A stretch of 18,501 bases of DNA from Bdellovibrionota bacterium (lineage in GTDB: Bacteria; Bdellovibrionota_C; UBA2361). Under the pieces are notes generated by a model, which did no database searches, was not told the origin of the DNA, and saw only the letters and a program-made list of their open reading frames with translations. Positions 136 to 14,734 of this stretch are shown here, piece by piece. Numbering within the stretch: position 1 is the stretch's first letter; each line of letters starts with the position of its first letter. The stretch is from contig JBILDU010000061.1 of NCBI GenBank assembly GCA_044352465.1, positions 1 to 18,501 on the forward strand. The letters are read 5' to 3'. Both the position numbers and the translations under genes were made by a program.

Positions 136-345
136 TCCCGCGGCGTCGGAGTGCGAACCCGCTCCCCATCTGAGGGTGGGCAGTGCGGCGTAGCCCACAA
201 GCAGGGTTGTAAAAAGCTCACATTCATGGTTTTTTCACGCAATCGGAGCGCTTGGCGAGCTATTCGTTCCCATTTTTCGTTCCGTTTTGTGCGGGGGCCT
301 GTGTTGGCGTCAGCCTTCGAGAGGCCCGTATTCACGAGGGAAACT

Positions 346-1032
346 GTGCGTTCTATAGTTGCTTGTCTGCTCGGAAGCGTTGTTTTTTTCACCGTTGTTG
401 CCACTCAAGGTGCTCATGGTGCCGACGGTCTACGCGTTGGTCCTTGTCCAATGAGCTGTCGGACATTGGGAATCGATAAGCGGCATTGCCGTGACTGGCG
501 CGAAGGGAATACCTGCTATGTGGAGGATACCCGCTACAGTAGCGGCAATCGCCCCTCCCGCCCGATCAGCCCCCCACCGACCCCAACATTCGCCCCGATA
601 CGCCCGCCGAGTTCCCTTTATCCCGATCGCCCGAGCCAATCGGGGCCAGGATATGAGGAGTGTCGGCGGATGAATCGGTTTGATATTTCGCGTCCCTATA
701 TCAACATCGCGCGGGTACGACCGACCGGGAACGTATTCGGCTCGAAGTATAAGGTGTTCGGCTCAGTTGAAGGGATGTGTCTCGTGGAGGCGGGCTATTT
801 TGAGGGTGGACGTAAGGTCAGCAATATTCCGGTCGCCCCAACGCGTGATTTCAGGCGTTTTGAGTTCGAGGTGACTATTCGGGGAGACGAGTTCCCTGAG
901 TTGCGGGCTTATACAATAAACGGCGACCGCGAGGTCCGTCAGCTCGATCGAAGTGACCTTGAGGGGGATTACCGCGACCGTCGGGAGGATGACCGGTACG
1001 ACCGCTACGACCGCTGGGATTCGCGGCGCTGA
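346..1032 (+). CDS. Hypothetical secreted protein: signal peptide, small 4-Cys module, Pro-rich linker, beta-rich domain, D/R/Y-rich tail
   Basis: ORF 151..1032. The GTG at 346 follows GAGGG (336-340) and gives a Sec-like signal MRSIVACLLGSVVFFTVVATQGAHGA. Start site is inferred. Confidence 0.75.
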   Translation: MRSIVACLLGSVVFFTVVATQGAHGADGLRVGPCPMSCRTLGIDKRHCRDWREGNTCYVEDTRYSSGNRPSRPISPPPTPTFAPIRPPSSLYPDRPSQSGPGYEECRRMNRFDISRPYINIARVRPTGNVFGSKYKVFGSVEGMCLVEAGYFEGGRKVSNIPVAPTRDFRRFEFEVTIRGDEFPELRAYTINGDREVRQLDRSDLEGDYRDRREDDRYDRYDRWDSRR

Positions 1033-2849: not shown

Positions 2850-2987
2850 CATGCCTTACGTCGCCGCCAGATTCGTTTGGCCCTCCGTAGTCAGGTCCCG
2901 CGACTTCGCGTGGGGCGTTTGCTCTGTCGCTATATTTTGTAAGATGCATTATTTTTAAGTTCTCTAAGCCTTTTGTGAGGATTTTTT

Positions 2988-3473
2988 ATGCCGTCGTTCG
3001 ACGTTGTCTCTGAAGCTAATATGCAAGAGGTGAAAAATGCTGTGGACCAGGTTCATCGAGAGATAACGACGCGCTTCGATTTCCGGGATTCGAAGTCGTC
3101 AATCGAACTTGAGGAGATGAACATTAAGCTGTTGGCTGATGACAAGATGAAGCTTGCGGCGATTCAAGATGTTCTGCGGCAGAAGCTGGCGAAGCGAAGC
3201 GTGAGCCTTAAAACGGTCGAATTTAAGGATCCTGAGCCGGCGGGCGGAGACATGATTCGTCAGCTCGTCGTGGTAAAGCAGGGGCTATCAGACGATGAGC
3301 TGAAGAAGATCAATAAAGCTATCAAGGCGAGCAAGCTTAAAGTTTCATCCCAAATTCAAGGCGTGCAGATCCGTGTGACCGGTAAAAAACGGGACGATCT
3401 GCAGCTGGCTATTGCGGCCCTCCGAAGTGAGTTTAAGGACCTTGAGCTTCAGTTCACCAATTTCCGCGAGTAG
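2988..3473 (+). CDS. yajQ: YajQ family nucleotide/cyclic-di-GMP-binding protein
   Basis: MPSFDVVSE..EVKNAVDQ..RFDF, RVTGKKRDDLQ, QFTNFRE; 161 aa; GAGGA RBS. Confidence 0.96.
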   Translation: MPSFDVVSEANMQEVKNAVDQVHREITTRFDFRDSKSSIELEEMNIKLLADDKMKLAAIQDVLRQKLAKRSVSLKTVEFKDPEPAGGDMIRQLVVVKQGLSDDELKKINKAIKASKLKVSSQIQGVQIRVTGKKRDDLQLAIAALRSEFKDLELQFTNFRE

Positions 3474-3697
3474 GGGCGTCGGTCCTCGTGGGGGCGTCCA
3501 AGGCCTGCCTTCCGGGGGGCAAGGGCTCATCGTGGTGGTGTCTCAGGGAGATTTCGGGCGGCCCCCGCAATTCGATAATTGCAATAATATCAGATATTTA
3601 AGTCTCGCCTAGAGATGCCGACGAGGTAATTATCGTGCCGGAGGGCTGGAAAATCTAGGGCGAACGTGTGTAGATTTAAACCCTCGATTTTCCCTTT

Positions 3698-3704
3698 AGG
3701 AGGT
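3698..3704 (+). promoter_or_regulatory. Strong Shine-Dalgarno site of the histone gene
   Basis: AGGAGGT 4 nt upstream of the ATG at 3709. Confidence 0.85.
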
Positions 3705-3708
3705 ATGT

Positions 3709-3930
3709 ATGAACGATGCAGCACTCGAGCAAGATGTCTTGGTAGTCGTCTCCAAGCTTAAGAATTATATCCGCGCTAGATCGGGGCTTAACACCTCGGG
3801 CAACGTCGCGAGCGTCCTCTCGGAGATCGTCCGTCGCGAGTGCGACCAGGCGATTGAGAAGGCTAAGTCCGATGGCCGTAAGACGGTCATGGATCGTGAC
3901 TTCCCCGGTTCGGGAGAGGCGATGGCTTAA
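3709..3930 (+). CDS. Bacterial histone (single histone fold, Bdellovibrio Bd0055/HBb-like)
   Basis: VLVVVSKLKNYIR..GLNTS..V..VLSEIVRRECDQAIEKAKSDGRKTVMDRDF. Carries the histone-fold L2 RKTV-x3-D motif and the LVVxSKxK and NTS signatures recalled from Bd0055. Strong RBS and downstream terminator. Confidence 0.9.
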   Translation: MNDAALEQDVLVVVSKLKNYIRARSGLNTSGNVASVLSEIVRRECDQAIEKAKSDGRKTVMDRDFPGSGEAMA

Positions 3931-3969
3931 GGAGCCTCACCTTTTCGGGGGGGACCCCTCGGTAGTCAG

Positions 3970-4010
3970 CGGCCCTAAGGCTTCAATAGAAGCTTTAGGG
4001 CCGTTTCCTT
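3970..4010 (+). terminator. Intrinsic terminator after the histone gene
   Basis: CGGCCCTAAGGCTTC-aata-GAAGCTTTAGGGCCG (15-bp stem with one G-U pair) followed by TTTCCTT. Confidence 0.8.
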
Positions 4011-4262
4011 GTGCGATTGATTCGAATTAGGCACGACGTCAGCTCCCTCGTCTCCCGTCCGGTAACTTTTTCACCTGCCAGAGGTTTCGGGGGCGGGACA
4101 CGAGTACGGCGAGGATGGTCGCGCAGCTTGCCGCGGGCGAAGTCTCGACCGGCTCTTCTATGAAAGAACTTTCTGTTCTGATGGCGAGATACTCAGACCG
4201 ACCAGAGCACGGAGCTAAACTCACACTAACTCCCGGCGAGGCAAAGGGGCTGGCCTATCAGG

Positions 4263-5333
4263 CTACTCTCTCTCCTCCCGCCTCGGGGGGTGGACCAGTC
4301 GGCAAGGGGGGTAGCCAACGCGTAACAATCGGCGATCCTCCTTGAGCGGTGGAAGATCGCGGAGCATCTCTTTTGGTAAGCCGAAAATTCTGACGGTTTC
4401 ACGGATGCTCAGATTCAGATTTTCAAGCAGCGCAAAATTCTCCCGCGAGCGCTCCTCCGATGTGTAGTAACGGAACTCGGCGAGGGCCGTTTTCACTGCG
4501 TCGCGTGCGACCGGTTGAAGGTGGCGGCGTATTGTTTTGAAATCAACGCACTCGTCTGCAGTCAAGCAAGCTCCCGCTAGGTCGCGGCGTTTGAGCGCGG
4601 CCTCGATGCGATGCTCGACTATCGCCAGGAACGGGCTCGCCTTAAAGAAGTCGCTGAGCATAAACATTTCGCTTAACGCATAACCATCAGAGAGACTCCC
4701 TCCTGCGGTCACGTAACGGAGGATGCCAGCCTCGACATCTGAGCGGGTTCGAAAGATAACCTTGTCGGGTATTTGGACGCCGGTGTCGACCAGATTCACT
4801 AGTTTGCCGATATCATCCCGCTCAATGTGTGACACGATCGTCCGGGCGAGCGCGTCGCAATACTTATCTCGATGGAAGAAAAAGGCATCGAGCGTCGTCC
4901 CGAGCTCCATGGTCCCACTCAGTTGATTCGACTTAATCGCGGAGATGATCTCGAACTCGGCGAGAGGCTTGATTTCATCTCGCACCCTTCGCGAAATCGG
5001 GAGCTGCGCGCTGTTAAGTAGCTGCGCTGCTAGCTCGAGCCGTTGATCGATCAGCAATGTGGTCAGTGCATCGAGGTAGGCCTCATCTTGGACGGTCTGG
5101 GGAACCGATGGGTGCGCCTCGTGAAGAAAGCGGGCGATATGATTAATATACTGGGGTAACGCTTGGCGGGCAGCCAGAGTTACCTGCTCATGCGTCGGGC
5201 GGATGCCTTGAAGCTCAAGCTCCTCTCGAGCGAGTTGGGGAGACCCGGCTAGATAGTCTCGCACGAGTTGGCGAAAATGAGTGCCGCTATCGAAATGCGA
5301 GGTGCTGCTGAGGCTTGAGGAGAGGTGCGCCAT
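4263..5333 (-). CDS. Hypothetical alpha-helical protein (no recognised family)
   Basis: Long ORF (4263..5351) with natural composition and amphipathic helical patterning. The ATG at 5333 (MAHLSS) is preferred as start. Confidence 0.7.
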   Translation of the reverse strand: MAHLSSSLSSTSHFDSGTHFRQLVRDYLAGSPQLAREELELQGIRPTHEQVTLAARQALPQYINHIARFLHEAHPSVPQTVQDEAYLDALTTLLIDQRLELAAQLLNSAQLPISRRVRDEIKPLAEFEIISAIKSNQLSGTMELGTTLDAFFFHRDKYCDALARTIVSHIERDDIGKLVNLVDTGVQIPDKVIFRTRSDVEAGILRYVTAGGSLSDGYALSEMFMLSDFFKASPFLAIVEHRIEAALKRRDLAGACLTADECVDFKTIRRHLQPVARDAVKTALAEFRYYTSEERSRENFALLENLNLSIRETVRIFGLPKEMLRDLPPLKEDRRLLRVGYPPCRLVHPPRREERE

Positions 5334-5609
5334 AACCGGTACTCTAAACAAAACTTGGGTGGATTTGAACGCCGAAATTCAACAAATCGCTCCCCGTGAG
5401 CGAGATGGAAAAACACCTTCAAACCGCCCCGACGATTCCTCGTCGAGTCTTGAAAACCGGGTGCGCGGCCCCTTTTGCCTTTACAGGAGCTGTGCGTAAT
5501 CGATGAGCGACTATACGATGTTCGGCTAAGGGGATTCGATGCGCGGGGATTGGCCCTGCCAAGATGTGGGTAAGGTGCTGATCTATATATGGAAAATATG
5601 AAGCTGCCC

Positions 5610-8256: not shown

Positions 8257-8468
8257 GTTAATCCCAAAAAAATAAGCAAAATCAAATTGTTATCGTTTGC
8301 CTTCGAACTCGTGATCTTTTACAGTTACGAGCGTGCAACGATGGTATTAAATGCTTCCAAGATACCTTATGACCATCCGCAAGCGTAGGCTTGTTCGTGC
8401 GGCCTCGCCGTCCGGTCAGGGGGTCCCGCGGGATGCGAGAGGAAATAGTGGCACGAAATGAGGTGGGT

Positions 8469-9704
8469 ATGAGGGGCGATTTGGCGCGGCAAAAGTCTCC
8501 GTTTTCTCGCCGTTTGATAAGGGTCTGTCTTGCGGCTTGGATAGTTGGGCAGGCGTATGTCGAGTTTGCCGCAGCCGCAGATGTGACTGGGGGATCTGCT
8601 TCGAGCGTGCACGACGTCCGTACGAACATGGCAACGGTAGCCCGCGCTTACCAGGAACTTCAGCCGTACCTTCTGTCACGCGAAAAGTTTGAGGCTCAGG
8701 AGAATGAGAAGGCGATCGCTGCGCTCTTGGAGACTCTGAGTGCAGGATTCCATCGAATCGAATCAGCTCCTCCTCGTCTTCGTCAAGAGCCGGGTTTCGC
8801 CGGCACGCTTACCTTGTTGAACGATCTGCTGGCGGATTCCCGGAATCGATTTAATGAGGGTAGTAAGGGGTACGTATTATGGCGACTCCGAAACTCGGTC
8901 GACTACTGTGTGACCTGTCACACTCGCCACGAGGTGAAAGTTGATTTTCTGGCTCCTGAACCGGAGCCAGCAGCGCTCAACAGCTATCAGCGGGCTGAGT
9001 TTCTGCTGGCAACGCGGCAATTTGATGCTGCCGCGGAGACATTCCTGAACTCGGTCCGAACCCCGCCGAATGGCCATCTTCGCATCGATGCGTTGCGTCG
9101 TTGGCTGCTGATCTCCACGCGGGTACATCCCGATCCGCGAAAGGCGTTAAGTGTCTTAACGACGTCGCGTCGCCAGGTCTCATTTTCGAAGCCGGAAGAC
9201 GAGGAGTTGCAGGGCTGGGTCGAGTCGTTGCGCCGTTGGAATAACGAGAGTCGGCTTATCGAGGTAACGCCAATTCGGCGGGCTGAACACCTCATTCAAC
9301 AGGCGCTCGCGCTCAAACAACCGCTCGTGGGACGAAATGGAACGGTGGAGCTTTTCCGGGCGACCGGAATATTGCATCAGGTGCTTGAAGATGGTCGGCC
9401 GGAAGCTACCGCTCTCCGCGCTCGGGCGCTCCGACTTTTAGGAGTTGCCTACAGCGAGATCCCTTTTCTTTTCGTAGCGGATCTCCCGACATTGTTTCTC
9501 GAAGAGTGTATCCGGGAGTTTCCGGGGGGTGAGGATGCGCGGAAAGCGTATCAACTTTATCAGCACCTGGTTACCTTGGAATACACCGGGAGTGGTGGCA
9601 CCGGTGTGCCTCCCGATGTAGAGGCGACTCTCCGGGAGTTGTACGATTTGGCTTATAAGAGCCCAGGGGAGACCGAGTTCGCGGCCTCTCCGGGACGTCT
9701 TTAA
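8469..9704 (+). CDS. Exported putative monoheme c-type cytochrome with C-terminal TPR-like helical region
   Basis: CVTCH (8907-8921); hydrophobic signal-like segment RRLIRVCLAAWIVGQAYVEFAAAA; TPR-like helices (YQRAEFLLATRQFDAAAETF; EECIREFPGGEDARKAY). Start uncertain (8391, 8433 or 8469). Confidence 0.75.
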   Translation: MRGDLARQKSPFSRRLIRVCLAAWIVGQAYVEFAAAADVTGGSASSVHDVRTNMATVARAYQELQPYLLSREKFEAQENEKAIAALLETLSAGFHRIESAPPRLRQEPGFAGTLTLLNDLLADSRNRFNEGSKGYVLWRLRNSVDYCVTCHTRHEVKVDFLAPEPEPAALNSYQRAEFLLATRQFDAAAETFLNSVRTPPNGHLRIDALRRWLLISTRVHPDPRKALSVLTTSRRQVSFSKPEDEELQGWVESLRRWNNESRLIEVTPIRRAEHLIQQALALKQPLVGRNGTVELFRATGILHQVLEDGRPEATALRARALRLLGVAYSEIPFLFVADLPTLFLEECIREFPGGEDARKAYQLYQHLVTLEYTGSGGTGVPPDVEATLRELYDLAYKSPGETEFAASPGRL

Positions 9705-10667: not shown

Positions 10668-12077
10668 ATGTGGCGGTCCCGCGCTTCGTCTGTCTTCTTG
10701 TCGTTCGTCTTTGCTCTGATCGTCCACTCGTTGTTCCCCGGTAGCGGCGCCTGCGCGCCGACAGTAAAGGAGGGGGAGGGAGGTGCAGTACGAGCGATCG
10801 CTCAGGAGGCGTGGCTGTATGCTTATGCGCCGTTACAAGGTTATCAGACCCTCTACAACCAGGCGTTGAACAAAGACTTCCCCGGGTACGTAGGCGGGTT
10901 CAACCGTTTTCGACACTATTCGCGGCTCTCGACCCCTACCGACACCGATATCGTAACGCCAAACAACGACACGCCCTACTCATGGGCGTGGCTCGATCTC
11001 CGTGCTGAACCGATCGTCCTCTCGCTCCCCGCCGTACCCGCACCCCGGTATTACGTGAACCAGTGGTTTGATTTGTATACCCACAACTTTGCCTACACCG
11101 GGGTTCGCGCGACCGGGCGGGGCGCGGGCAACTACCTCTTCGCCGGTCCAAACTGGAAGGGTACCGTGCCGCCCAACATCACCGCGGTCTTCCGGGCTGA
11201 AACCGAGATTGTGGGCACCCTCACCCGAACCCAGTTAGACGGCGAGGACGATCGTGCCGCGATGCAAAAGATTCAAGCGCAGTATCTTCTTACTCCGTTG
11301 TCGGCGTTCCTCGGCGATCCACCGCCACCACCTTTACCCCCGATCACCCTTCCTGCGTGGGATAAGACGGTGGGAGAGGGAATCGGATTTATCGGGTATC
11401 TGAACGCGCTCCTCCCCTATATGCCAACCGTGCCCTCTGAAAATGAGGCCTTCGCGCGTTTCGCTACCATCGGCATCGGCGCGGGTAAGCCGTTCGATGC
11501 AGCGGCGTTACCACCCGATATGCGGGCCGCCATCGAAGCCGGCGTGGCTGACGCTACCAAGCTGCTTCAGGACACCGCCCTCGTGCAAAAAGACTCGAAG
11601 CAACTCTTTGGAACCCGCAGCAAGCTCGGAGAAAATTACATTATGCGCCGTTCCCTCGGAGCGATGCTCGGGATTTACGGAAACTCTAAAGAGGAAGCGA
11701 TCTACGGGAGCCAACAGACCGATCCCGCTGGCAAGGTGCTCGATGGAAACAAGCGGTGGGTACTCCGCTTCGAAGCGGGGCAGCTTCCGCCGGTAGATAT
11801 TTTTTGGTCGATCACCATGTATAGACTTCCGGAGCGATTCCTCGTCGAGAATAGGCTGAACAGATATTCGCTGGGCGACCGGTCACCGAGCCTAAAACCC
11901 GGGGCTGATGGTTCGCTTGAGATCTATCTGCAGAGCGAGGAGCCGAGCCCCGAGAAGATCGGCAACTGGCTCCCCACTCCACCGGGGCCCTTTTTCTTTG
12001 TAGCCCGCTTTTACGGACCCCAAGCTCCCCTCATTAACGGTACGTGGACCTTACCTTTGTTAAAGGAGATCCGATGA
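10668..12077 (+). CDS. Exported DUF1254/DUF1214 domain protein
   Basis: IVTPNNDTPYSWAWLDLRAEP, RYYV.Q..DLYTHNF, GNYLFAGPNW.G, FWSITMY, NWLP.P.GPF...R.YGP; N-terminal signal. Confidence 0.9.
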   Translation: MWRSRASSVFLSFVFALIVHSLFPGSGACAPTVKEGEGGAVRAIAQEAWLYAYAPLQGYQTLYNQALNKDFPGYVGGFNRFRHYSRLSTPTDTDIVTPNNDTPYSWAWLDLRAEPIVLSLPAVPAPRYYVNQWFDLYTHNFAYTGVRATGRGAGNYLFAGPNWKGTVPPNITAVFRAETEIVGTLTRTQLDGEDDRAAMQKIQAQYLLTPLSAFLGDPPPPPLPPITLPAWDKTVGEGIGFIGYLNALLPYMPTVPSENEAFARFATIGIGAGKPFDAAALPPDMRAAIEAGVADATKLLQDTALVQKDSKQLFGTRSKLGENYIMRRSLGAMLGIYGNSKEEAIYGSQQTDPAGKVLDGNKRWVLRFEAGQLPPVDIFWSITMYRLPERFLVENRLNRYSLGDRSPSLKPGADGSLEIYLQSEEPSPEKIGNWLPTPPGPFFFVARFYGPQAPLINGTWTLPLLKEIR

Positions 12078-13543
12078 AAAATAACTACTTCTCCCTCCTC
12101 CATGTAGTCTTTACGGCTGGGGTGCTCGCGCACACGCTTCTGGACACGAAGCCGGCTTCGGCTCAAACCGTCGACACAAGGATCGGGAAGCTCCAACTTG
12201 AGAACGGTTACCCGTCGGCCGAGGCGGTCGAAAAGCTCTACACCGAGATGGATTTCCAGCGCGCAACGCAGATCTATCTATGGGGGCTTCCTGCTGTCGG
12301 CTTCTACGGACTACGGCAGGCACACCGAAGAAACTTCGGCGCTCAAGACGGCGAGGTCGTGTTGTACCAAACTCCGAAAGATAAGGCCGGGATGTTGACC
12401 CCGAACCTTACGACACTGTACGCCTTCACCTTTTGGAACATGGCCGAGCAGGGTCCTCTCGTGGTGGAAGTCCCAGCTGGCGCCACCGCCGGTGGTGTGG
12501 ACGACATCTGGCAACGCCCTGTCATCGACACCGGCCAAACCGGCCCCGATAAGGGCCAAGGGGGAAAGTATTTGATCCTGCCCCCTGGTGCGCCCGACTT
12601 GAATCCACCGGGGTATTTTGTCGCTCGATCCGCCACGAATCAAATCTGGTTCGGGACGCGGGGGCTCTCCTCCGAGATCGCCGACGCCGAGGTGACCGTG
12701 CGGAAACACCGCATCTATGGATGGAACGATCGCGCCACCCCTAGAACCACGAAGTACATCCCGGTCGGTGGACGCGCGTGGGCCTCGTGGCAACCAAACG
12801 ACATCTCGTATTTCGAGCAGCTGAAGGAGATCTTAGACCCGGAGCCGCTGGAGCGCCACAACGGATATTTCGCTGCGATGCTCCGCTCACTCGGGATCGA
12901 AAGGGGAAAACCCTTTGAGCCAGATGAGAAACGTCGAAAGGTGCTTGGAGAAGCCGCTGTGACCGGGGAATTGATGGCGCGAGCGAATGCGTTTGCCAAA
13001 CGCTACCCCGACTCGACGGTCTTTGCCGGCACTCACTGGGAGTACGCCAATATGGTCGAACTCGATCAACAGACGAAAGACTTCTCTCAGCTCGACGAAC
13101 GCGCCTCATGGTTTTACGAGGCGATCGGCAATACCCTCGGCATGCAAGGACGAGTTGTTGGGTTCGGTCAGGTGTATCTTGAAACCGCGCGGGACAGATC
13201 TGGCAAATGGCTCGATGGTGCCAAGAGCTACCGACTCCGCGTTCCGCCGAATGCCCCGGTGAAGCAGTTCTGGTCCGTCACGTTGTATGAGAATGTGACA
13301 CGCGCACCGCTCCAATCGCCGGGGGGCACCGCGGATATCTCCTCGCGTAAGTCCGGCCTTGAGATCAATCCGGATGGTTCGGTCGATCTATTCTTTGGTC
13401 CGCGTAAACCATCTGGCTCACCGACGAACTTCGTTCAGACAGTCCCGGGTAAGGGCTGGTTCGTGTATTTCCGACTCTACGCCCCGACAGAGCCGTACTT
13501 TAATAAGACGTGGGCGCTGCCCGATATCGAGGAGATTCGCTAA
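12074..13543 (+). CDS. Exported DUF1254/DUF1214 domain protein (second subtype)
   Basis: DFQRATQIYLWGLP, LTPNLTTLY, GPDKGQGGKYLILPP, FWSVTLYE, NPDGSVDLFFGP, FRLYAP. ATG at 12074 overlaps the upstream TGA and has an AAGGAG RBS. Confidence 0.9.
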   Translation: MKNNYFSLLHVVFTAGVLAHTLLDTKPASAQTVDTRIGKLQLENGYPSAEAVEKLYTEMDFQRATQIYLWGLPAVGFYGLRQAHRRNFGAQDGEVVLYQTPKDKAGMLTPNLTTLYAFTFWNMAEQGPLVVEVPAGATAGGVDDIWQRPVIDTGQTGPDKGQGGKYLILPPGAPDLNPPGYFVARSATNQIWFGTRGLSSEIADAEVTVRKHRIYGWNDRATPRTTKYIPVGGRAWASWQPNDISYFEQLKEILDPEPLERHNGYFAAMLRSLGIERGKPFEPDEKRRKVLGEAAVTGELMARANAFAKRYPDSTVFAGTHWEYANMVELDQQTKDFSQLDERASWFYEAIGNTLGMQGRVVGFGQVYLETARDRSGKWLDGAKSYRLRVPPNAPVKQFWSVTLYENVTRAPLQSPGGTADISSRKSGLEINPDGSVDLFFGPRKPSGSPTNFVQTVPGKGWFVYFRLYAPTEPYFNKTWALPDIEEIR

Positions 13544-13910: not shown

Positions 13911-13948
13911 GAACGATGCAGTTCTTACACGGGCGGAGGCGGGAGTGT

Positions 13949-14734
13949 ATGAAAGCAGCAAAAATCGTATTTCTCATCCTTTTGGCGACGTCTCTGCAAA
14001 GTCTTGCCTACGCACAGTCGGGCGCACCGGAGATGCTGAATACTCCTCAGATGTTCAACCTCATTCAAAGTGATGATCAGACCGACCCGTCGGGCGGTTC
14101 GGGTGGCCAAGACTTATGTGTCAGCCCAAAATTATCTAAAGATGGGTGTTACCAAGTGCCCACCATGTCTTTGGAGAAACTCTCTAGCGCGTTTCCGCTT
14201 GCAGGTTTGTCGCGGCCTCCATTTCTGTTGCCCAGCATACCCTCTGACCCTTACTCCCGCGGCCCCTGCGCTCCCTTGAATGAGGATTTTTGCGAGGCAC
14301 TACGGCGTATGCCGTTGCATGACGTCGAGTGTAAGGCCCTTTGGCTACCGAGACATACTATTCCACTGTTTTGCTTCTCGAATGCAGCGGCCGAGAGAAC
14401 CTGTTGTCTCCATGAGCCTCAGACTGGCTTTGCGGTTTGCAGTCCTTATGAAGATTGGTTCGAATCTGATGGTAGTCTGACCGAGAGGTTTGGAGTGATT
14501 TATCAATGGTTATGCCTGAAATATTACGGCAACTGCGAAGAGGACTGTAAGACCGCGGCGGGCTTCAGGGTCCTCTACCCTCTTTGCAACGATCCACAGC
14601 GTGGGCGGGGGGGATCCTGCCGCGGTCAGGGGGAAACAAACGAATGTATCGGTGTGAATATGCCACCTCAGGATTCTGGAAGCATCCACCCGTTAACATG
14701 CGAATGCACAATCGCAGGCTGCGTTTGGTCTTGA
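13949..14734 (+). CDS. Hypothetical secreted cysteine-rich protein (18 Cys)
   Basis: Signal peptide MKAAKIVFLILLATSLQSLAYA-Q; GGAGG/GGGAG RBS; 18 Cys counted in the mature region. Confidence 0.8.
   Translation: MKAAKIVFLILLATSLQSLAYAQSGAPEMLNTPQMFNLIQSDDQTDPSGGSGGQDLCVSPKLSKDGCYQVPTMSLEKLSSAFPLAGLSRPPFLLPSIPSDPYSRGPCAPLNEDFCEALRRMPLHDVECKALWLPRHTIPLFCFSNAAAERTCCLHEPQTGFAVCSPYEDWFESDGSLTERFGVIYQWLCLKYYGNCEEDCKTAAGFRVLYPLCNDPQRGRGGSCRGQGETNECIGVNMPPQDSGSIHPLTCECTIAGCVWS

What the first reader, a model, noticed from the sequence alone, without database searches (positions are those of the whole stretch)
3709..3930. Bacterial histone gene with strong expression signals
Seen: 73-aa ORF with a perfect AGGAGGT RBS and a 15-bp-stem terminator, the layout expected of an abundant protein. 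Established (recalled, not searched): Bdellovibrio Bd0055/HBb is an essential, abundant, non-nucleosomal histone with VLVVxSKxK, NTS and AKxDGRKTVMxRD motifs, all present here. This version adds a short acidic N-terminal extension (MNDAALEQD) and a C-terminal tail (FPGSGEAMA). Inference: this organism has histone-based chromatin, and the gene would likely be auto-annotated as hypothetical.
Basis: partly seen in the sequence, partly recalled or inferred. Interest (0 to 1): 0.85.

Follow-up and report, generated by a model that had tools for sequence, protein, structure and literature searches.

The report
HBb-type bacterial histone gene
This small gene encodes a genuine miniature histone of the kind already characterised in the predatory bacterium Bdellovibrio, here in an uncultured relative, so the call is correct but the protein belongs to a known and widespread family.

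Summary
A 73-codon ORF (3709-3930, +) follows AGGAGGT by 4 nt, and a 15-bp hairpin follows the ORF.

The protein is a sequence homologue of Bdellovibrio HBb/Bd0055 (PDB 8cmp, E 2.4e-11). Its model superposes on HBb at 1.5-1.8 A. A handshake homodimer is predicted (score 0.59, best control 0.00).

It keeps the RKT/RD clamp, the S-K motif and 8 of 10 HBb DNA-contact residues. It lacks the residues that archaeal or face-to-face histones use to form tetramers. So it is a "bacterial dimer" (alpha3-truncated) histone, most likely a non-specific DNA-bending nucleoid protein.

- Selection is strongly purifying (dN/dS 0.029).
- The 65 nt upstream are 88% conserved in a congener, against 51% at third codon positions.
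- Codon adaptation is at ribosomal-protein level.
- The gene is single-copy and coexists with HU/IHF genes.
- Half of the genomes of its phylum carry it (62 of 124).

The acidic N-tail is the family norm, not a speciality of this copy. DNA binding and abundance remain untested. This scan has reported HBb-type histones before on other DNA. Verdict: new member of a known kind; low interest.

The parts
3644..3708 (+). Conserved upstream block: candidate promoter plus 5' leader. Candidate -35 TGGAAA at 3647-3652, 18-nt spacer, candidate -10 TAGATT at 3671-3676.
   Evidence: It is 88% identical to the same-genus relative (94% over the last 47 nt). The distal intergenic DNA is 38% identical and third codon positions are 51% identical (38/74) (alignment). 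The hexamers are my reading of the sequence, 8 of 12 matches to consensus. The consensus scan needs 9 of 12 and did not flag them.
3698..3704 (+). Shine-Dalgarno sequence AGGAGGT, 4 nt before the start codon.
   Evidence: It is identical in the congener. Only 57 such heptamer-plus-start-plus-ORF (50 aa or more) arrangements occur in the 3.13-Mb genome. GGAG or GGAGG precedes the orthologue's start in most same-phylum relatives.
3709..3930 (+). Histone gene: 73-aa HBb-type ('bacterial dimer', alpha3-truncated) histone. Acidic N-tail residues 1-9, invariant-length core 10-65, C-tail 66-73.
3970..4013 (+). Terminator-like hairpin (3970-4003, 15 bp, loop AATA) with a weak T-rich tail (4004-4013).
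   Evidence: The hairpin is positionally conserved with changed stem sequence in the congener, and canonical terminators follow orthologues in other relatives. It was not flagged by the consensus scan and is not a dispersed repeat.

Best explanation
The gene encodes a member of the HBb/Bd0055 'bacterial dimer' class of alpha3-truncated histones.

Shown or predicted here:
- The fold is two long helices (alpha1, alpha2) joined by loop L1, then loop L2 and a single-turn alpha3.
- Two chains are predicted to interlock head-to-tail. The alpha2 helices cross at V41, and L1 of one chain is paired with L2 of the other.

Inferred from HBb:
- The dimer binds the DNA backbone without sequence preference. 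It does so through the paired L1-L2 loops (N28, S30, K58, T59, R63) and the start of alpha1 (S15, K16, K18, R22).
- It bends DNA locally, acting as an abundant nucleoid-associated protein alongside HU/IHF.
- It does not build nucleosome-like tetramers, because it lacks the residues that make them.

The gene is a stand-alone unit with its own conserved promoter/leader block, an unusually strong ribosome-binding site and its own terminator hairpin. This layout is consistent with high expression. The acidic N-tail, a family-wide trait, brings the net charge from +4 (core) to 0 and may temper DNA affinity; that last point is inference only.
For: Sequence.
- phmmer against PDB chains: HBb 8cmp E 2.4e-11 and 8fvx 2.6e-11, ungapped over residues 9-65. 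HLp 9qt0 scores 6e-6 and HTkC 9f2c 0.22.
- Family: 1837 proteins at E<=1e-3 among proteins of 40-128 aa, with JGI's name 'histone H3/H4'. There are 556 cluster representatives at E<=1e-3.

Fold.
- AF2 with a 50-row alignment: mean pLDDT 86.9, helices 3-25 and 31-54, one turn at 61-63.
- Foldseek PDB: the five best hits are all HBb entries (rmsd 1.5-1.8 A, 45-48% identity, TM by target 0.76-0.79). HLp, MHF/CENP-S and HTkC follow.

Dimer.
- Score 0.59, best of 3 controls 0.00. The mark was reached by 20 of 30 proteins solved as pairs of one chain and by 1 of 23 solved as single chains.
- The runs agree in at least 93% of contacts, and the partner's pLDDT is at least 74.
- Lowest-error contacts are 28:59, 29:60 and 41:41, i.e. 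L1-L2 pairing and an antiparallel alpha2 crossing.
- HBb dimers are solved, so this pass may be from memory. It shows likeness, not binding.

Residues.
- Mapped through the alignment onto the HBb contact list in PMC11317129 (passages read), 8 of 10 DNA-contact residues are identical, K16 becomes R22 and T8 becomes V14.
- The RD clamp R51/D58/D49 corresponds to R57/D64/D55.
- S15, K16, K18, N28, T29, R57, K58, T59 and D64 are invariant in 50 relatives.
- Against tetramers: the position of HBb A48 (HMfB H49) is S54. The face-to-face triad R49/N53/R55 (PMC12701072, passages read) maps to K51/D55/R57.

Selection and expression proxies.
- dN/dS is 0.029 with dS 1.66 against the congener.
- The histone is 93% identical to the congener's. 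Its neighbours are 55-92% identical.
- The upstream 65 nt are 88% identical.
- CAI is 0.741, the 98.8th percentile of 1314 long ORFs. The ribosomal/EF leave-one-out median is 0.689.
- The SD arrangement is rare in the genome.

Genome context.
- Single copy by protein, by Pfam model and by family profile.
- HU/IHF genes are present.
Against: - No DNA-binding, abundance or expression measurement exists for this protein.
- Curated models do not reach their cut-offs: PF00808 scores 15.3 bits against 21.4, PF09123 12.8 against 21.8, and NCBIfam archaea_histone 18.1 against 50.
- The whole protein is charge-neutral (11 K+R, 11 D+E, pI 6.2). That is less basic than expected for a bulk DNA-coating protein.
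- One HBb DNA-contact residue differs (T8 becomes V14). One HBb dimer-core residue named in PMC11317129 (L38) aligns to E44.
- The monomer model runs alpha1 from residue 3, whereas in HBb alpha1 starts at T8 (paper passage). The N-terminal geometry is therefore uncertain.
- The codon-adaptation signal is borderline against length-matched chunks: 5.05% of 20,000 chunks reach it.
- The consensus scan flagged neither a promoter nor a terminator, and the T-tract is interrupted.
- HBb's own binding mode is disputed in print: end-on coating (PMC10627809) versus bending (PMC11317129).
Confidence: 0.85

Rival explanations
1. Same protein family but a different DNA-binding mode. Dimers bind end-on and polymerise into a sheath around straight DNA (a nucleohistone filament), as proposed for Bd0055 from its first co-crystal, rather than bending DNA.
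For: PMC10627809 (abstract and passages read) reports this mode for Bd0055 in vitro. The residues shared with HBb would serve either mode. The absence of tetramerisation residues fits both.
Against: PMC11317129 (passages read) reports bending for the same protein from a second crystal form, tethered-particle motion, circularisation assays and MD. The longer acidic N-tail here (net -3) lies next to the alpha1 DNA-contact site and could disfavour close packing. That is inference.
Confidence: 0.2
2. It is a tetrameric, DNA-wrapping face-to-face (HLp/HTkC-type) histone rather than a dimeric one.
For: HLp is the next-best solved relative: E 6e-6 and rmsd 1.7 A. F65 and R57 match HLp F63 and R55. 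K51 is a conservative stand-in for R49.
Against: Only 1 of the 3 conserved tetramer residues is identical (R49/N53/R55 map to K51/D55/R57). Position 51 varies in the family (K/N/R/S/H). D55 is the HBb-type residue that caps the RD clamp. Similarity to HBb is five orders of magnitude better in E-value. No tetramer prediction was run.
Confidence: 0.05
3. It is a histone-fold protein that has lost bulk DNA binding and serves as a protein-protein adaptor or specific regulator.
For: The whole protein has net charge 0 and pI 6.2. PMC10627809 (discussion passage read) notes that some histone folds work outside DNA binding.
Against: The 56-residue core is basic (+4, pI 9.7). It keeps the invariant RKT, RD-clamp and S-K DNA-contact residues. 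No conserved neighbour gene suggests a partner: synteny holds only with the same-genus relative.
Confidence: 0.05
4. The ORF is spurious and not a real gene.
For: It is short (73 codons) and no curated model passes its cut-off.
Against: dN/dS is 0.029 at dS 1.66. Codon positions 1/2/3 are identical at 72/70/38 of 74. There are 1837 homologues and a confident fold.
Confidence: 0.01

Closest known systems
HBb / Bd0055 of Bdellovibrio bacteriovorus (PDB 8cmp, 8fvx, 9ezz, 9f0e); 'bacterial dimer' category of alpha3-truncated histones (PMC11390915), 'bacterial singlet' of PMC10627809
   Same: - Ungapped 57-residue alignment (E 2.4e-11).
- 45-48% identity and 1.5-1.8 A rmsd to the model.
- Same core length, S-K motif, NTS loop L1, DGRKTVM-RD loop L2 with RD clamp, and a conserved Cys in alpha2.
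- No tetramerisation His.
- A predicted handshake dimer.
- A lineage labelled Bdellovibrionota.
- Coexistence with HU/IHF genes.
   Different: - Only about 48% identical to HBb, yet 57-93% identical to same-phylum orthologues and 60-80% identical to homologues in records labelled Planctomycetota, Nitrospirota and Eisenbacteria, among others. It therefore sits in a more tightly conserved sub-cluster than HBb itself.
- The acidic N-tail is 6 residues longer.
- After RD the sequence is F-PGSGEAMA instead of HBb's short hydrophobic end.
- T8 becomes V14, and the interface residue L38 becomes E44.
- The whole protein has net charge 0.
- Function is untested.
HLp of Leptospira perolatii (PDB 9qt0-2) and HTkC of Thermococcus kodakarensis (9f2c): face-to-face tetrameric alpha3 histones
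   Same: Truncated alpha2 and alpha3, the RD clamp, and the F after RD. Structural match at rmsd 1.3-1.8 A.
   Different: The tetramer network residue N53 is replaced by D55 and R49 by a variable K51. Sequence similarity is weaker (E 6e-6 and 0.22). The query has K-T in loop L2 (RKT) like HBb, where HLp has R-T-T (alignment).
Archaeal nucleosomal histones (HMfB/HTkA; Pfam PF00808)
   Same: Histone fold, RKT-xxxx-D motif and handshake dimer.
   Different: Below the Pfam cut-off (15.3 against 21.4 bits). Shorter alpha2, a one-turn alpha3, and no His at the four-helix-bundle position (S54). No hypernucleosome is expected.
ZZ-histones and HBb-type tandem doublets
   Same: They carry the same histone core at 58-72% identity to this protein.
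   Different: They carry an N-terminal Cys-rich (ZZ-type) domain or two cores in one chain. The protein here is a plain singlet, and no second copy is found in its genome.

Membership tests
Bacterial dimer histones (HBb/Bd0055 type) | Sequence clusters with HBb. The category is defined by sequence clustering (PMC11390915, methods passage). | tested here: met
   E 2.4e-11 to 8cmp and 2.6e-11 to 8fvx, ungapped over residues 9-65. HBb chains are the five best Foldseek hits.
Bacterial dimer histones (HBb/Bd0055 type) | Histone fold with shortened alpha2 and alpha3 reduced to about one turn. | tested here: met
   The AF2 model has helices 3-25 and 31-54 and a 3-residue turn at 61-63, with pLDDT 86.9. 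The core length of 56 residues is invariant in 110 of 110 parsed relatives and aligns to HBb without gaps. This is a prediction only.
Bacterial dimer histones (HBb/Bd0055 type) | RKTxxxxD motif / RD clamp in loop L2. | tested here: met
   R57-K58-T59 and D64 are invariant in 50 sequences, and D55 corresponds to HBb D49.
Bacterial dimer histones (HBb/Bd0055 type) | Conserved Ser-Lys at the start of alpha1, and lysines on alpha1. | tested here: met
   S15, K16 and K18 are invariant. R22 stands at HBb K16.
Bacterial dimer histones (HBb/Bd0055 type) | Head-to-tail handshake homodimer. | tested here: met
   Score 0.59 against best control 0.00. The mark was reached by 20 of 30 solved homo-pairs and by 1 of 23 single chains. 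At least 93% of contacts are shared between runs, and the partner's pLDDT is at least 74. L1-L2 pairing and a 41:41 crossing are seen. This is a prediction and may be from memory of solved HBb dimers.
Bacterial dimer histones (HBb/Bd0055 type) | No residues for higher oligomers (no His49-type bundle, no face-to-face R/N/R network). | tested here: met
   S54 stands at the HBb A48 / HMfB H49 position. K51/D55/R57 stand at HLp R49/N53/R55 (alignments with residue lists from PMC10627809 and PMC12701072 passages). Oligomeric state itself was not predicted beyond the dimer.
Bacterial dimer histones (HBb/Bd0055 type) | Non-specific DNA binding and bending; high abundance. | not testable with these tools
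   Only proxies are available: CAI at the 98.8th percentile, a rare strong SD and a conserved leader.
Face-to-face (FtF) histones (HLp/HTkC) | Conserved tetramer-interface residues R49, N53, R55 (HLp numbering). | tested here: not met
   They map to K51, D55 and R57, so 1 of 3 is identical (alignment; PMC12701072 passage).
Archaeal/eukaryotic-type histone domain (Pfam PF00808 CBFD_NFYB_HMF) | Score at or above the curated gathering cut-off. | tested here: not met
   15.3 bits against 21.4 (E 0.024), matching only residues 33-64. NCBIfam archaea_histone scores 18.1 against 50.
DUF1931 / Aq_328-type pseudodimeric histones (PF09123) | Score at or above the cut-off; two folds in one chain. | tested here: not met
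   12.8 bits against 21.8. The protein has a single fold. No PF09123 match was found anywhere in the genome at E<=10.

The most novel reading that the evidence does not exclude
The family-wide acidic N-tail may be a built-in regulator of DNA binding. It is net-negative in 109 of 110 parsed relatives, with E or D directly before the hydrophobic VLVVV segment, and here its charge is -3. It would be an 'anti-histone-tail' that folds back on the basic alpha1/L1-L2 surface and tunes or gates DNA affinity, so that this charge-neutral histone (pI 6.2) behaves differently from HBb. For example it might bind only at high concentration, at certain ionic strength or after tail processing. Together with the 56-residue core kept at 60-80% identity in records labelled with at least nine phyla, this would mark a distinct, more constrained histone sub-class than the one type member studied so far.
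Probability: 0.15. Interest if true: 0.45.

Novelty: new member of a known kind. Interest (0 to 1): 0.22.

Why it matters
Bacterial histones are rare: fewer than 2% of genomes in the survey of PMC10627809 carry one. Only two, HBb and HLp, have been studied structurally and functionally (PMC12701072, discussion passage).

This copy adds no new principle, but it is a clean example from an uncultured Bdellovibrionota-labelled lineage. It has an intact stand-alone transcription unit, very strong purifying selection, and translation signals stronger than those of the organism's own ribosomal-protein genes. That supports the view that HBb-type histones are major nucleoid proteins well beyond Bdellovibrio itself.

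Two by-products could be of use to the field:
- the invariant 56-residue core paired with an almost always acidic N-tail;
- the patchy presence within the phylum (62 of 124 genomes, one family 0 of 36).

Both give comparative handles on what these proteins do and on when they can be lost.

Tried and rejected
1. RNA evidence. No RNA holder was listed for window 2900-5400, so no reads were laid. This says nothing about expression.

2. Consensus promoter/terminator scan of 3400-4300. It found 0 sites of either kind. I keep the hairpin as terminator-like on fold energy and on its positional conservation with changed stem sequence. The promoter hexamers are only candidates.

3. Rfam scan of 3400-4300 at E<=1. 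No match. The fold of the leader 3644-3730 is not significant (z -1.40, 20 of 200 shuffles as stable).

4. Hairpin as a REP/BIME-type dispersed repeat, a lead from earlier notes on this genome. Rejected: only two partial matches at E 0.066 elsewhere in the genome.

5. Sigma-54 reading of TGG-N10-GC at 3647-3661. Rejected, because the GC element lies in the 6-nt patch that is not conserved in the congener.

6. Conserved operon partner. Rejected: the window's neighbours recur only beside the same-genus copy among 100 loci.

7. Phylogeny of 62 core sequences. 10 of 71 named loci were not parsed by my pattern. The tree is unresolved (39 of 59 inner branches open, 4 starred). Vertical descent against transfer between phyla cannot be decided.

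8. Disulfide or metal site at the invariant Cys45. Not supported: in the dimer model C45 touches alpha1 residues 17, 20 and 21 of the partner, not the other C45.

9. A second, divergent histone in the genome. Not found with the protein, PF00808, PF09123 or the family profile, in an assembly 94.9% complete.

Full report
**What is in the sequence**

Window 3709-3930 (+) is a 73-codon ORF. It translates to MNDAALEQDVLVVVSKLKNYIRARSGLNTSGNVASVLSEIVRRECDQAIEKAKSDGRKTVMDRDFPGSGEAMA. The open frame is only 76 codons, so there is no alternative upstream start.

AGGAGGT lies at 3698-3704, four bases before the ATG. A hairpin begins 39 bases after the stop codon. It spans 3970-4003, has 15 pairs including one G-U, and has the loop AATA. 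The tail TTTCCTTGTG follows. The fold gives z -4.41 and -3.33, with 0 of 200 shuffles as stable.

**Is it more than chance?**

The heptamer alone is not. The window has 3 copies against 2.0 expected, and 66 of 200 shuffles reach 3. The simple consensus scan flagged no promoter and no terminator in 3400-4300.

Comparison with a same-genus genome (locus L007 = L078; histone 93% identical) decides the matter.

| Region | Identity to the congener |
|---|---|
| Codon position 1 | 72 of 74 |
| Codon position 2 | 70 of 74 |
| Codon position 3 | 38 of 74 |
| 65 nt before the ATG | 88% |
| Last 47 nt before the ATG | 94% |
| Distal intergenic DNA | 38% |
| DNA beyond the hairpin | 42% |

- dN/dS is 0.029 at dS 1.66.
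- The congener's hairpin is in the same place, but its stem is only 53% identical and still pairs (-51.4 kcal/mol, z -8.74). It is followed by AUUUCGCUUUUU.
- Orthologues in other relatives are followed by textbook terminators, for example L079.
- The hairpin is not one of the REP-like repeats noted elsewhere in this genome.
- Within the genome, only 57 AGGAGGT heptamers precede, by 3-9 nt, a start codon that opens an ORF of 50 aa or more. None of 27 ribosomal-protein/EF genes in the str-S10-spc-alpha region of contig C13 has even GGAGG upstream. Those genes were named from gene order anchored on the EF-G/EF-Tu hits, not verified one by one.

So the gene and its signals are real, and the ribosome-binding site is exceptional for this organism.

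**What the protein is**

*Sequence.* A sequence search of all PDB chains gives these hits:
- HBb/Bd0055 of Bdellovibrio bacteriovorus, 8cmp at E 2.4e-11 and 8fvx at 2.6e-11, ungapped over residues 9-65;
- the Leptospira perolatii histone HLp, 9qt0 at 6e-6;
- HTkC, 9f2c at 0.22.

Curated models do not reach their cut-offs. PF00808 scores 15.3 bits against 21.4. PF09123 scores 12.8 against 21.8. NCBIfam archaea_histone scores 18.1 against 50.

*Fold.* An AlphaFold2 model built on 50 relatives has mean pLDDT 86.9. It has helices at 3-25 and 31-54 and one turn at 61-63. Foldseek against the PDB returns HBb entries as the five best hits (rmsd 1.5-1.8 A, 45-48% identity). HLp, MHF/CENP-S and HTkC follow.

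*Dimer.* A two-copy prediction scores 0.59 against 0.00 for the best of three controls. The mark was reached by 20 of 30 solved homo-pairs and by 1 of 23 single chains. The runs share at least 93% of contacts, and the partner's pLDDT is at least 74. The lowest-error contacts are L1 (27-30) with L2 (58-60) of the other chain, and V41 with V41. That is the histone handshake. HBb dimers are solved, so this pass shows likeness and may come from memory.

**Residue-level comparison**

I used the alignment (query residue = HBb residue + 6) and the contact list from the MD analysis of HBb in PMC11317129 (passages read).

| HBb role | HBb residue | Residue here |
|---|---|---|
| DNA contact | N22 | N28 |
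| DNA contact | R57 | R63 |
| DNA contact | S9 | S15 |
| DNA contact | T53 | T59 |
| DNA contact | S24 | S30 |
| DNA contact | K10 | K16 |
| DNA contact | K12 | K18 |
| DNA contact | K52 | K58 |
| DNA contact | K16 | R22 (conservative) |
| DNA contact | T8 | V14 (changed) |
| RD clamp | R51 / D58 / D49 | R57 / D64 / D55 |

- Eight of the ten contacts are identical. V14 is itself at least 90% conserved in the family.
- S15, K16, K18, N28, T29, C45, A48, A52, R57, K58, T59 and D64 are invariant in the 50-sequence alignment.
- The position whose change to His helped HBb wrap DNA (A48, equivalent to HMfB H49; PMC10627809 passages) is S54 here.
- The conserved tetramer residues of face-to-face histones (HLp R49, N53, R55; PMC12701072 passages) map to K51, D55 and R57.
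- Of the HBb dimer-core residues named in PMC11317129 (V11, L31, I35, L38, I59), four are hydrophobic here (L17, L37, V41, F65). L38 aligns to E44, which is a variable family column.

The protein therefore meets every testable feature of the 'bacterial dimer' category of alpha3-truncated histones (PMC11390915 passages). It fails the defining feature of the face-to-face class.

**The tails**

Relative to HBb the protein has six more N-terminal residues and a different, slightly longer C-terminal end. This is not special to this copy.

I parsed 110 singlets out of the 120 best database hits. Ten were skipped because my patterns did not match once each, doublets among them. Among the 110:
- the core is 56 residues in all of them;
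- the N-tail has a median of 9 residues (range 5-45) and is net-negative in 109;
- E or D stands directly before the hydrophobic strand in 109;
- C-tails range from 0 to 20 residues (median 4) and are mostly neutral.

Here the core carries +4 (pI 9.7). The tails bring the total to 0 (pI 6.2).

**Genome and lineage**

The window lies in a 3.13-Mb, 170-contig assembly estimated 94.9% complete.

- The histone is single-copy by protein, by PF00808, by PF09123 and by a family profile.
- HU/IHF-family genes are present. There are four PF00216 matches, two of them cut by contig ends. The histone is therefore not the only architectural protein.
- Codon adaptation to the ribosomal/EF set is 0.741. That is the 98.8th percentile of 1314 ORFs of 300 aa or more, and above the leave-one-out median of the reference genes (0.689). 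Against length-matched 72-codon chunks, 5.05% reach it.
- In the collection's 124 genomes of the same phylum, 62 have a match at E<=0.001. Among good-quality genomes the count is 38 of 73, and by genus it is 44 of 64. In the window's own family it is 3 of 4 other genomes. One family has 0 of 36.
- Sixteen of 29 same-phylum loci are sequence-identical to named records. Ten carry Bdellovibrionota, Bdellovibrionales or Oligoflexia labels, four say only 'bacterium', and two carry older proteobacterial labels, the congener's among them. This agrees with earlier notes of this scan on the same genome.
- Gene neighbours recur only beside the congener's copy: YajQ/DUF520 at 92%, PFK at 79%, and others at 55-66%. 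There is no operon partner.

**Family breadth**

The word-indexed search found 1837 proteins of 40-128 aa at E<=0.001. JGI names many of them 'histone H3/H4', and NCBI names them 'hypothetical protein'.

The exhaustive search of 50%-identity representatives found 556 at E<=0.001 and 260 at E<=1e-10. Many carry two histone cores or long N-terminal regions. Examples read are tandem doublets (P0121, P0003, P0123) and Cys-rich ZZ-like fusions (P0146, and P0122 with two cores).

Homologues at 60-80% identity come from records labelled Planctomycetota (including anammox genera), Nitrospirota, Nitrospinota, Eisenbacteria, Krumholzibacteria, Latescibacterota and Myxococcota. A tree of 62 cores is essentially unresolved, with 39 of 59 branches open. 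I draw no conclusion on transfer.

**Mechanism**

*Shown or predicted here:* a real, strongly constrained gene; an HBb-like fold; a handshake dimer; retention of the DNA-contact and clamp residues; absence of tetramer residues; and strong translation signals.

*Inferred from HBb:* non-specific backbone binding at minor grooves through the L1-L2 loops and the alpha1 start, local bending of DNA by a dimer, and high abundance beside HU/IHF. The literature disagrees on HBb's mode: an end-on sheath in PMC10627809, bending in PMC11317129. I rank bending first and the sheath as the main rival.

*Not shown:* any DNA binding, abundance or essentiality for this protein. No RNA run was listed.

**Novelty**

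- Bacterial histones of this type are catalogued (PMC10627809, PMC11390915).
- The type member is solved and characterised (PMC11317129).
- A Bd0055 homologue is reported in 67% of Bdellovibrionota genomes (PMC10627809 passage).
- Chromatin of a histone-bearing Bacteriovorax has been mapped (PMC11789641, abstract read).
- This scan has itself reported HBb-type histones on other DNA: 71 findings hold the words. None is on look-alike sequence of this protein.

This is a correct call and a new member of a known kind. The modest additions are the regulatory-region conservation, the genome-relative strength of the SD, the family-wide acidic N-tail with a fixed 56-residue core, and the patchy distribution within the phylum.

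Noticed in passing
window 3648-3655 and 3686-3693: An 8-bp inverted repeat, GGAAAATC / GATTTTCC, brackets the candidate -10 region inside the conserved upstream block. Both arms are identical in the same-genus relative, while the 6 nt just after the first arm vary. It could be an operator or a leader stem. The fold is not significant on its own (z -1.40).
   Followed up: partly
database proteins P0121, P0003, P0123, P0122, P0146: The HBb-type core also occurs as tandem doublets in one chain (126-149 aa, up to 67% identical to this protein). It also occurs fused to an N-terminal Cys-rich ZZ-like domain, once with two cores (274 aa). Many of the best cluster representatives have two matched stretches.
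   Followed up: partly
same-phylum genomes: Presence of the histone is patchy: 62 of 124 genomes overall, but 0 of 36 in one family of the same order. Several genomes hold a second, weaker match inside open frames of 170-260 aa, which are probably domain-fused paralogues. The window's genome has none.
   Followed up: no
window 2988-3473 (+): The upstream neighbour is a YajQ/DUF520 protein (E 3.5e-58). It is 92% identical to the congener's copy, as conserved as the histone, while the other neighbours are 55-79% identical. The adjacency is not kept outside the genus.
   Followed up: partly
window 10668-12077 and 12044-13543 (+): Two adjacent, slightly overlapping paralogous genes each encode a DUF1254 + DUF1214 protein.
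   Followed up: no
window 4263-5351 (-), 8391-9704 (+), 13916-14734 (+), 151-1032 (+): Long ORFs with no Pfam family at E<=0.01. The 362-aa one, convergent with the histone gene, is only 55% identical to the congener's copy.
   Followed up: no
genome contig C13, 2572-21416: Ribosomal-protein and EF genes of this organism use weak Shine-Dalgarno sequences. Of 27 genes, 0 have GGAGG, 17 have only a 4-mer core and 10 have none within 20 nt. Overall codon bias is also weak: the reference median CAI is 0.689 against a background of 0.644.
   Followed up: partly
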